A stretch of 41,868 nucleotides of DNA from a virus. Its lineage: Duplodnaviria > Heunggongvirae > Uroviricota > Caudoviricetes. The stretch lies in the IMG/VR virus record IMGVR_UViG_2974481312_000001, positions 1-41,868 of that record. One strand, 5' to 3'. This document shows positions 40,595 through 41,868 of the stretch, one piece after another (within the stretch, counting starts at the first letter, position 1; every line of letters starts with the position of its first letter). The translations under genes were made by a program, and so were the position numbers. The notes under the pieces are model-generated. The model had not been told where the DNA came from. It was given only the letters and a program-made list of their open reading frames with translations, and did no database searches.

Positions 40595-41868
40595 ATGTCA
40601 ACAGGTAATCTAGCATACTCATGGTCGCGTAGCAATCGCCGTGAGGAACGCGCTGACATTAACGTTTACACCACGACTTCCGGCACCTGGGATGAGTTCG
40701 TCGAACTTATGCAGCCGCTTAAACGTTCGCGCCGGAACCCCAAGACAGACCCCGGATATATCACCGCCGCGTGTACCGCCACGGTAAGCTCTACTGGTAA
40801 AGAAGCCGCCGAAGGTATGTTTTATCGCTGCAATGCGTCCGTAACGTCTTCGTCCCTGGCTTACGCCGATGTGGATAGTGCGACTCCGGAAGAGTTCGCA
40901 ACTGACTGCGAGATGGTGCGGGAGTCGCGTTTCGCAATGATGCTCTACACCACGGCATCTCACACCGAAGAAGCGCCGCGCTATCGCGTCGTTATGCCGG
41001 TACGCACTCCTGTAACAGGTGGAGACATCATCCGCATTCGGTACGGTCTGCTGACGCATTTCCTTAAAGGCCGTGACGTAGATAGCGCGGGCTTCACCCT
41101 GTCGCAACCGATGTACCGCCCGCCAGTGGGAAGCCAGGTCATCGTGTCTGAAAGTAGCCGCATGATTACGGCAAGCAAGCTTATGGAGGGGGTGCCTGAA
41201 ATTAACGTTACGGGTGCTTCCGATTATAAGGTGCCAGAGGGTGAGCAATCTGAATTAACCGACCTGTTTGAAGAGTTCGCTTTTGAATTCGGCGGACGTA
41301 TGACTGACCGCGGCCTGCAAATGCCAGCTACGCCGGAACACGCCGCCCAATATACTACCGGAGAACCTAAGCAGGATGACTTCCTGTTCTGTTGGCCGCG
41401 CGACGGCTTCGAGCGTCCCAACGTTACCCTGTACCACGATACCGACCTGGTGGCCACGGGCGGGATGACACCCGGCGGCCGGGATATGTGGGCTTACGCT
41501 TGTGCAGCTACCGGCTTACCTTTTGACCGTGTGGAGGTGGCGCTTGGGTGGGCGGAGGGGATCACTTGCGACGAAGAGGACCTGGCCGACGAAGAACCCC
41601 CGGCGCCGCAGGCCGATTTCGTCGTAGAAGGGTACATGCCGTCCAATTGTATCTGGGATATTGTCGGTGAATCCGGGACGTATAAGTCTTTCTACACACT
41701 CGGCATGATGTATATCAGTGCTGCCGGGTATCGTTTTGCAGGTGCTGATACTCGTAAAGCTCATCATTTCTATATTGATGGTGAGGGTGGGGAGTTCACG
41801 CACACCCGTATCGCTGCGTTGGCCGCTAAATACGGTGATGAAGGTATGCGGTATATGCATGTGCTTGA
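40595..41868 (+). CDS. Primase-helicase, N-terminal part (AEP-type primase domain plus start of P-loop helicase); runs off the window end and continues in frame at nt 1
   Basis: No stop for 424 codons from ATG 40595 (absent from the ORF track, presumably because it has no stop in the window); AEP-like motifs LAYADVD and YTTASH; P-loop-like IVGESGTYKS near the end; AAAGGAAAA RBS. Confidence 0.7.
   Translation, partial: MSTGNLAYSWSRSNRREERADINVYTTTSGTWDEFVELMQPLKRSRRNPKTDPGYITAACTATVSSTGKEAAEGMFYRCNASVTSSSLAYADVDSATPEEFATDCEMVRESRFAMMLYTTASHTEEAPRYRVVMPVRTPVTGGDIIRIRYGLLTHFLKGRDVDSAGFTLSQPMYRPPVGSQVIVSESSRMITASKLMEGVPEINVTGASDYKVPEGEQSELTDLFEEFAFEFGGRMTDRGLQMPATPEHAAQYTTGEPKQDDFLFCWPRDGFERPNVTLYHDTDLVATGGMTPGGRDMWAYACAATGLPFDRVEVALGWAEGITCDEEDLADEEPPAPQADFVVEGYMPSNCIWDIVGESGTYKSFYTLGMMYISAAGYRFAGADTRKAHHFYIDGEGGEFTHTRIAALAAKYGDEGMRYMHVL

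What the first reader, a model, noticed from the sequence alone, without database searches (positions are those of the whole stretch)
40595..41868. Primase-helicase gene spans the window boundary, implying a closed circular or permuted genome
The plus-strand ORF starting at 40595 runs without a stop to the last base, leaving two nucleotides (GA) that join nt 1 (C) to give a codon in the same frame as the ORF at 2..913. Domain order is consistent: AEP-like primase motifs, then the P-loop GESGTYKS at the window end, then the Walker-B-like MVAFDTL and helicase core at the window start. The window therefore most likely represents an entire genome (about 728-aa primase-helicase), which also explains why all essential virion, lysis and replication functions are present.
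Basis: partly seen in the sequence, partly recalled or inferred. Interest (0 to 1): 0.5.

Follow-up and report, generated by a model that had tools for sequence, protein, structure and literature searches.

The report
Phage primase-helicase gene split by record ends
The window is the complete genome of a known Salmonella phage (almost certainly f18SE), written out from an arbitrary starting point that falls inside its replicative primase-helicase gene, so the "split gene" is a way of writing a circular map and is ordinary.

Summary
An ORF starts at ATG 40595 and runs to the last base. Its leftover GA joins nt 1 (C) to give GAC (Asp425), and the frame continues through 2..913, giving one 2187-nt, 728-aa gene.

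The join is real. The artificial end-to-start junction occurs as one ungapped stretch at 100% identity inside three sibling phage records (f2SE, f3SE, fSE4S). All three annotate an identical 728-aa "replicative helicase-primase". About 310 other Jerseyvirus records also cover the junction.

The window is an exact rotation of f2SE and f3SE, and each of those records is cut inside a different gene. Its length (41,868 bp) and G+C (49.8%) match the published Salmonella phage f18SE genome. Jerseyviruses package by the headful (pac) mechanism. The virion DNA is therefore linear, terminally redundant and circularly permuted, and only the map is circular.

The protein has four parts:
- an N-terminal AEP-fold primase domain (best structural match: cyanophage S-2L PrimPol)
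- a linker
- a RecA-like AAA_25 helicase core, with the record boundary lying between Walker A and Walker B
- a probable C-terminal winged helix

All of this is already known, so interest is low.

The parts
40595..41868 (+). 5' part of the primase-helicase gene (codons 1-424 plus the first two bases of codon 425). It encodes the AEP primase domain (about residues 1-200), the linker (about 200-335) and the start of the AAA_25 helicase core, including Walker A G358-S365.
1..913 (+). 3' part of the same gene (third base of codon 425 through the TAA at 911-913). It encodes Walker B (M450-L456, window 75-95), the HHT sensor and RGS motifs, a low-confidence spacer and a probable C-terminal winged helix (about residues 616-700).
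40584..40589 (+). AAGGAA, a Shine-Dalgarno-like sequence 5 nt upstream of the ATG.
   Evidence: Read directly from the sequence
918..937 (.). G+C-rich hairpin (GGGGCC-ATCA-GGCCCC) just after the stop codon, between the primase-helicase gene and the convergent HTH gene (928..1146, minus strand). Likely a terminator.
   Evidence: The scan scored it on the minus strand only.
41666..41689 (+). Walker A / P-loop codons (GESGTYKS). It is non-canonical, with Tyr363 where Gly is usual.
75..95 (+). Walker B codons (MVAFDTL; Asp454 is invariant).

Best explanation
The window is the complete, unit-length genome sequence of a Jerseyvirus, species Jerseyvirus f18SE. It is almost certainly the f18SE record itself. 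The sequence was assembled from circularly permuted, terminally redundant virion DNA and written out from an arbitrary point inside the replicative primase-helicase gene. Joining the ends restores one 728-aa protein. An N-terminal AEP-fold primase domain would make primers, and a RecA-like AAA_25 helicase core would unwind DNA, probably as a ring as in RSF1010 RepA. A C-terminal winged-helix-like domain probably binds DNA or a partner protein. The protein would act with the neighbouring PD-(D/E)XK exonuclease, Enc34-type ssDNA-binding protein, family A DNA polymerase and SNF2-type helicase genes. Gene continuity, the circular map and the folds and families are shown here. The enzymatic activities, the oligomeric state and the headful ends of this particular isolate are inferred.
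Against: No reads were available, so the physical ends of this isolate were not examined. The f18SE record itself (KR270151) is not in the searchable collection, so identity with it rests on length, G+C and species-level siblings. No primase or helicase assay exists for this protein family, as far as my searches showed. The full-length structure model is poor (pLDDT 55). The Walker A motif departs from consensus (Tyr instead of Gly before Lys).
Confidence: 0.95

Rival explanations
1. The window boundary is a true physical end of the virion DNA (a cos site or a fixed terminal repeat inside the gene). On this reading the gene is intact only after circularisation or concatemer formation in the cell.
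For: The f18SE paper reports only a single linear contig and no end analysis. The window has no terminal repeat.
Against: Near-identical sibling isolates were assembled with breakpoints at three other places, two of them shown to lie inside other genes. This is what arbitrary cuts of a circular assembly look like. The genus is reported to use headful pac packaging with a circular-looking restriction map. The large terminase belongs to the Terminase_6 type.
Confidence: 0.03
2. The two terminal ORFs are separate truncated genes of a larger element (a prophage or a longer contig), and their shared frame is coincidence.
For: None beyond the fact that the window's flanks are not visible.
Against: The junction is contiguous at 100% identity in sibling genomes of 41.8 kb. 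Homologues of 728-762 aa align across the junction without a gap there. The window length equals the published genome length.
Confidence: 0.01
3. The gene is real, but the N-terminal domain is a degenerate, non-catalytic AEP-like module, for example an origin-binding domain like the related Rep/E1 folds. On this reading the protein is only a helicase or loader.
For: No Pfam model and no PDB sequence match the domain. Rep-like origin-binding domains appear among the weak fold hits. No other primase gene was examined.
Confidence: 0.08

Closest known systems
Annotated 'replicative helicase-primase' of Jerseyvirus and Guernseyvirinae phages (f2SE ANA49860.1, fSE4S ALN97394.1, Ent1 SEP1_gp43, SETP3; PHROG 3228)
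   Same: The sequence is identical to the f2SE, f3SE and fSE4S CDS. It is 95-96% identical at DNA level to Ent1, SETP3 and SE2. PHROG 3228 matches over the full length.
   Different: Nothing differs in the protein. In this record only, the gene straddles the start and end of the sequence.
Cyanophage S-2L PrimPol (PDB 6ZP9; AEP domain + PriCT-2 + VirE-like helicase; PMC8065100)
   Different: Sequence identity is only 11-13%. The S-2L helicase part is VirE/SF3-like, whereas here it is RecA-like AAA_25. No PriCT-2 match was found here. S-2L PrimPol is that phage's only polymerase, whereas this phage also encodes a family A polymerase.
RSF1010 RepB' primase plus RepA helicase
   Different: In RSF1010 these are two separate proteins. 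Sequence similarity is undetectable.
T7 gp4 primase-helicase
   Same: It works the same way in outline: one polypeptide with primase at the N-terminus and a RecA-like ring helicase at the C-terminus (established knowledge).
   Different: The T7 primase is a zinc-ribbon plus Toprim (DnaG-type) enzyme, not an AEP. No sequence match was found.

Membership tests
Jerseyvirus (species Jerseyvirus f18SE) complete genome | Genome-wide nucleotide identity above 95% with members of the species | tested here: met
   99.96-99.98% identity over the whole length with f2SE, f3SE and fSE4S, all classified as Jerseyvirus f18SE.
Jerseyvirus (species Jerseyvirus f18SE) complete genome | Closed circular map with no missing or extra bases at the record ends | tested here: met
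   The 3000-nt end+start junction aligns in one piece at 100.0% identity inside three siblings. The ends of f2SE and f3SE are in turn adjacent inside the window.
Headful (pac) packaging: terminally redundant, circularly permuted virion DNA | Permuted read starts or a circular restriction map; terminase of a headful type | not testable with these tools
   No reads were available. The genus-level evidence comes from the literature (PMC10783031). The large terminase matches Terminase_6N/6C. Different breakpoints in sibling assemblies are consistent with this packaging mode.
AEP (archaeo-eukaryotic primase) superfamily | AEP / PrimPol catalytic fold | tested here: met
AEP (archaeo-eukaryotic primase) superfamily | Motif I acidic pair (DxD/DxE) on a beta-strand | tested here: met
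   D92 is present in 42/42 sequences and D94 is D or E in 42/42. Both lie on strand 83-95 of the model.
AEP (archaeo-eukaryotic primase) superfamily | Motif II (sxH) and motif III (hD) | tested here: inconclusive
   S122 (39/42) and H123 (34/42) fit motif II. D163 (35/42) is the likely motif III. I could not superpose coordinates to confirm these assignments.
AEP (archaeo-eukaryotic primase) superfamily | Primer synthesis activity | not testable with these tools
   This needs a biochemical assay.
Pfam AAA_25 (PF13481), RecA-like helicase/ATPase | Score above the Pfam gathering threshold | tested here: met
   70.2 bits against a cut-off of 27, E = 2.4e-19, residues 332-505.
Pfam AAA_25 (PF13481), RecA-like helicase/ATPase | Canonical Walker A GxxGxGK[ST] | tested here: not met
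   The motif is G-E-S-G-T-Y-K-S. Tyr363 (invariant in 21 homologues; Phe in P0121) replaces the Gly found in canonical relatives aligned at the same position. The Lys-Ser is kept.
Pfam AAA_25 (PF13481), RecA-like helicase/ATPase | Walker B hhhhD | tested here: met
   M-V-A-F-D454 is invariant and aligns with the 'vvID'/'liIE' Walker B of canonical relatives.

The most novel reading that the evidence does not exclude
The most novel reading concerns the protein, not the boundary. Its N-terminal domain belongs to a small AEP clade: only 58 representative clusters at E <= 0.001 among 1.84 billion proteins. This clade has no Pfam model and no solved structure. It is fused here to a RecA-like helicase whose P-loop carries an invariant aromatic residue where the near-universal Gly sits. 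That could mean an unusual mode of nucleotide binding or regulation in a primase-helicase shared by hundreds of therapeutic Salmonella and E. coli phages.
Probability: 0.15. Interest if true: 0.3.

Novelty: already known. Interest (0 to 1): 0.08.

Why it matters
The result matters mainly as housekeeping. A record that starts inside an essential gene will lose that gene in automated annotation, leaving two truncated ORFs. That can mislead comparative genomics and safety dossiers for a phage that has been tested for biocontrol. Rotating the record, for example to start at the small terminase gene, restores a 728-aa replicative primase-helicase identical to the one annotated in sibling isolates. 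There is no new biology in the boundary itself.

Tried and rejected
- Fetching the f18SE record (KR270151) failed because it is not in the collection.
- Sequence and profile searches of the PDB gave only spurious hits. The full protein hit a 'LNG binder' at E = 0.11. The N-domain profile hit a designed repeat protein through a short 'PRxRvvvPL'-like repeat. The full-length profile hit a fiber protein at E = 0.69.
- NCBIfam gave only a sub-threshold RadB hit, which just reflects the RecA-like core.
I used the 98%-identical P0001 instead.
- The full-length AF2 model was poor (pLDDT 55) and was not used for fold search.
- Two literature searches for end analysis of Jersey-like phages returned nothing or an unrelated phage, STGO-35-1.
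- Promoter and terminator scans around the gene were at background level, apart from the hairpin after the stop codon.

Full report
**Observation**

The plus-strand ORF begins at ATG 40595, 5 nt after an AAGGAA stretch, and runs without a stop to base 41868. That span is 424 codons plus two bases, GA. Adding nt 1 (C) makes GAC, and the same frame continues from nt 2 to TAA at 911-913. The window has no terminal repeat.

**Is the join real?**

I concatenated the last 1500 and first 1500 bases and searched the phage collection. The 3000-nt junction is found as one ungapped piece at 100.0% identity in the interior of three records:
- Salmonella phage f2SE (KU951146, 7865-10864)
- f3SE (KU951147)
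- fSE4S (KT881477)

A fourth record, fSE1C, matches at 99.6%. In all, 309 of 340 matching records, nearly all Salmonella Jerseyviruses, cover at least 80% of the junction.

Whole-genome BLAST shows that the window is an exact rotation, as the reverse complement, of two siblings at 99.98% identity:
- f2SE: window 1..9364 = f2SE 9364..1, and window 9365..41868 = f2SE 41865..9365.
- f3SE: the breakpoint is at window 20313/20314.

Closure is therefore mutual. The window's ends are adjacent inside the siblings, and the siblings' ends are adjacent inside the window.

All three siblings annotate a 2187-nt CDS, called 'replicative DNA helicase' or 'putative phage replicative helicase-primase'. Its translation is identical to the joined protein.

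A search of 5.8 billion proteins finds full-length homologues of 728-762 aa. Identities are 98% and about 60% at 100% coverage, and about 50% at 89% coverage. In a 21-sequence alignment the Asp created by the join (D425, in the motif H-V-x-D) is invariant.

**What the window is**

All three siblings are classified as species Jerseyvirus f18SE. The genome announcement for phage f18SE reports one contig of 41,868 bp with 49.8% G+C (PMC4599075). The window is 41,868 bp with 49.80% G+C. The f18SE record itself is not in the searchable collection, so the identification is near-certain but indirect.

The sibling annotations and my Pfam scan show a full gene set:
- Packaging and head: small and large terminase (Terminase_6N/6C), portal, head morphogenesis protein, major capsid protein.
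- Tail: tail proteins, tape measure, tail fibre, tailspike.
- Lysis: holin, lysozyme.
- Replication module: PD-(D/E)XK/DUF2800 nuclease, Enc34-type ssDNA-binding protein, family A DNA polymerase, SNF2-type helicase and this primase-helicase.

**Why the gene is split**

The sibling assemblies are cut elsewhere:
- f2SE is cut inside the SNF2 helicase gene, leaving a 315-nt stub.
- f3SE is cut inside a 376-aa metallophosphatase-like ORF, leaving a 729-nt stub.
- fSE4S is cut near window 37155-37280 and lacks about 124 nt there.

Different, arbitrary breakpoints in near-identical genomes are what one expects when a circular assembly graph is linearised. For the genus, PhageTerm, a circular-looking restriction profile and broad PFGE bands indicate headful packaging with pac initiation (PMC10783031).

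The virion DNA is therefore linear, terminally redundant and circularly permuted. Only the map is circular, and the boundary has no biological meaning. I could not examine reads, so for this isolate that conclusion is inferred.

**The protein**

*Family matches.* PHROG 3228 ('replicative helicase-primase') matches from residue 1 to 728. Pfam finds only AAA_25 at residues 332-505, at 70 bits against a cut-off of 27.

*N-terminal domain, sequence evidence.*
- The first 330 residues have few relatives: 58 representative clusters at E <= 0.001 among 1.84 billion proteins.
- Those relatives carry DUF5906, VapE-like, D5_N, PriCT_1, PriCT_2, Pox_D5, DUF3987, Zn_Ribbon_Prim or AAA_25 domains downstream. 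These are the usual partners of AEP primases.
- A 42-sequence alignment gives the signature R78 ... hhLD92xD94 ... YTTxS122H123T ... PRxR131hhhPL ... D163 ... QxxYxP.
- Conservation is R78, D92 and R131 in 42/42; D94 as D or E in 42/42; S122 in 39/42; H123 in 34/42; and D163 in 35/42.
- Neither sequence nor profile searches hit any solved structure.

*N-terminal domain, structural evidence.*
- An AlphaFold2 model of residues 1-215, built with that alignment, is confident (pLDDT 93.2, pTM 0.89).
- The next hits are RSF1010 RepB', mycobacterial Prim-PolC and LigD polymerase domains, HP0184, CAPP Prim-Pol, eukaryotic and archaeal PriS, human PrimPol, MPXV E5 and the HSV primase. Seventeen of the top 19 are AEPs.
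- Foldseek agrees (6ZP9, E = 8.8e-6, probability 1.00).

*Helicase core.*
- Alignment with canonical AAA_25 relatives places GESGTYKS exactly on their GxxGxGK[ST] Walker A, and MVAFD on their Walker B.
- These are followed by the conserved VVHHT and RGS motifs.
- The record boundary (residue 425) falls between Walker A and Walker B, so neither fragment alone could be functional.
- The P-loop is unusual. Tyr363 is invariant in the 21 homologues, and P0121 has Phe at that position, where Gly normally precedes the Lys.

*C-terminal region.* The full-length model is poor overall (pLDDT 55). It does predict a helix-helix-helix-strand-strand unit at residues 616-700 with pLDDT about 80, which looks like a winged helix. 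That assignment is tentative.

**Mechanism (inferred)**

The protein resembles other fused primase-helicases such as T7 gp4 and S-2L PrimPol, or the RSF1010 RepB'/RepA pair. The RecA-like domain would form a ring that translocates on ssDNA. The tethered AEP domain would lay down primers for the phage's own family A polymerase. Concatemers from this replication would then be cut by the terminase in headful packaging.

**Comparison and novelty**

The gene, its annotation, the genome and the packaging mode of the genus are all already in the public record. The closest characterised structural relative of the primase domain is S-2L PrimPol, which has an AEP domain, a PriCT-2 domain and a VirE-like helicase (PMC8065100). 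That protein differs in helicase class and in being its phage's only polymerase.

The finding is a correct reading of an ordinary artefact of linearisation. Its practical value is annotation hygiene. The f18SE paper lists helicase, polymerase and homing endonuclease but no primase-helicase. That omission would fit the split gene having been missed, though I could not check the record.

**Verdict**

The feature is already known, and interest is low.

Noticed in passing
window 9364/9365 (inside ORF 8284..9708) and window 20313/20314 (inside ORF 19950..21080): The sibling GenBank records f2SE and f3SE are also linearised inside genes. f2SE cuts the SNF2-type helicase, leaving a 315-nt 'DNA helicase' stub. 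f3SE cuts a 376-aa metallophosphatase-like ORF, leaving a 729-nt stub. These truncated CDSs are annotated as if they were complete.
   Followed up: yes
window 41666-41689 (residues 358-365): The Walker A motif is G-E-S-G-T-Y-K-S. An invariant aromatic residue (Tyr; Phe in a 45%-identical relative) replaces the Gly that precedes the Lys in canonical AAA_25 relatives aligned at the same position.
   Followed up: partly
window 4592..7690 (+): The family A DNA polymerase ORF is 1032 aa, but Pfam DNA_pol_A matches only residues 371-447, and an RNase_H_2-type exonuclease region matches weakly at residues 51-186. The polymerase is either very divergent or carries large insertions.
   Followed up: no
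window 41324-41392 (residues 244-266) compared with homologues P0041-P0120: Homologues at about 50% identity have a Cys/His cluster (PCPNEH ... FVCQHTNNGAC) in the linker between primase and helicase, which looks like a zinc-binding element. The f18SE protein keeps only H249 and C266.
   Followed up: no
window 37156..37279: The fSE4S record (41,768 bp) lacks about 124 nt that correspond to this stretch, exactly at its own record ends. That 'complete genome' is probably slightly short.
   Followed up: partly
window 1885..2406 (+) and 9705..10190 (+): Two HNH / homing-endonuclease genes sit inside the replication module. The first overlaps the start of the DUF2800 PD-(D/E)XK nuclease gene (2357..3826).
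   Followed up: no
whole window (literature): The f18SE genome announcement reports only 8x coverage and says that ten CDSs start with AUU. It lists no primase-helicase among the replication genes. This suggests the original annotation is unreliable and that the split gene was missed.
   Followed up: partly
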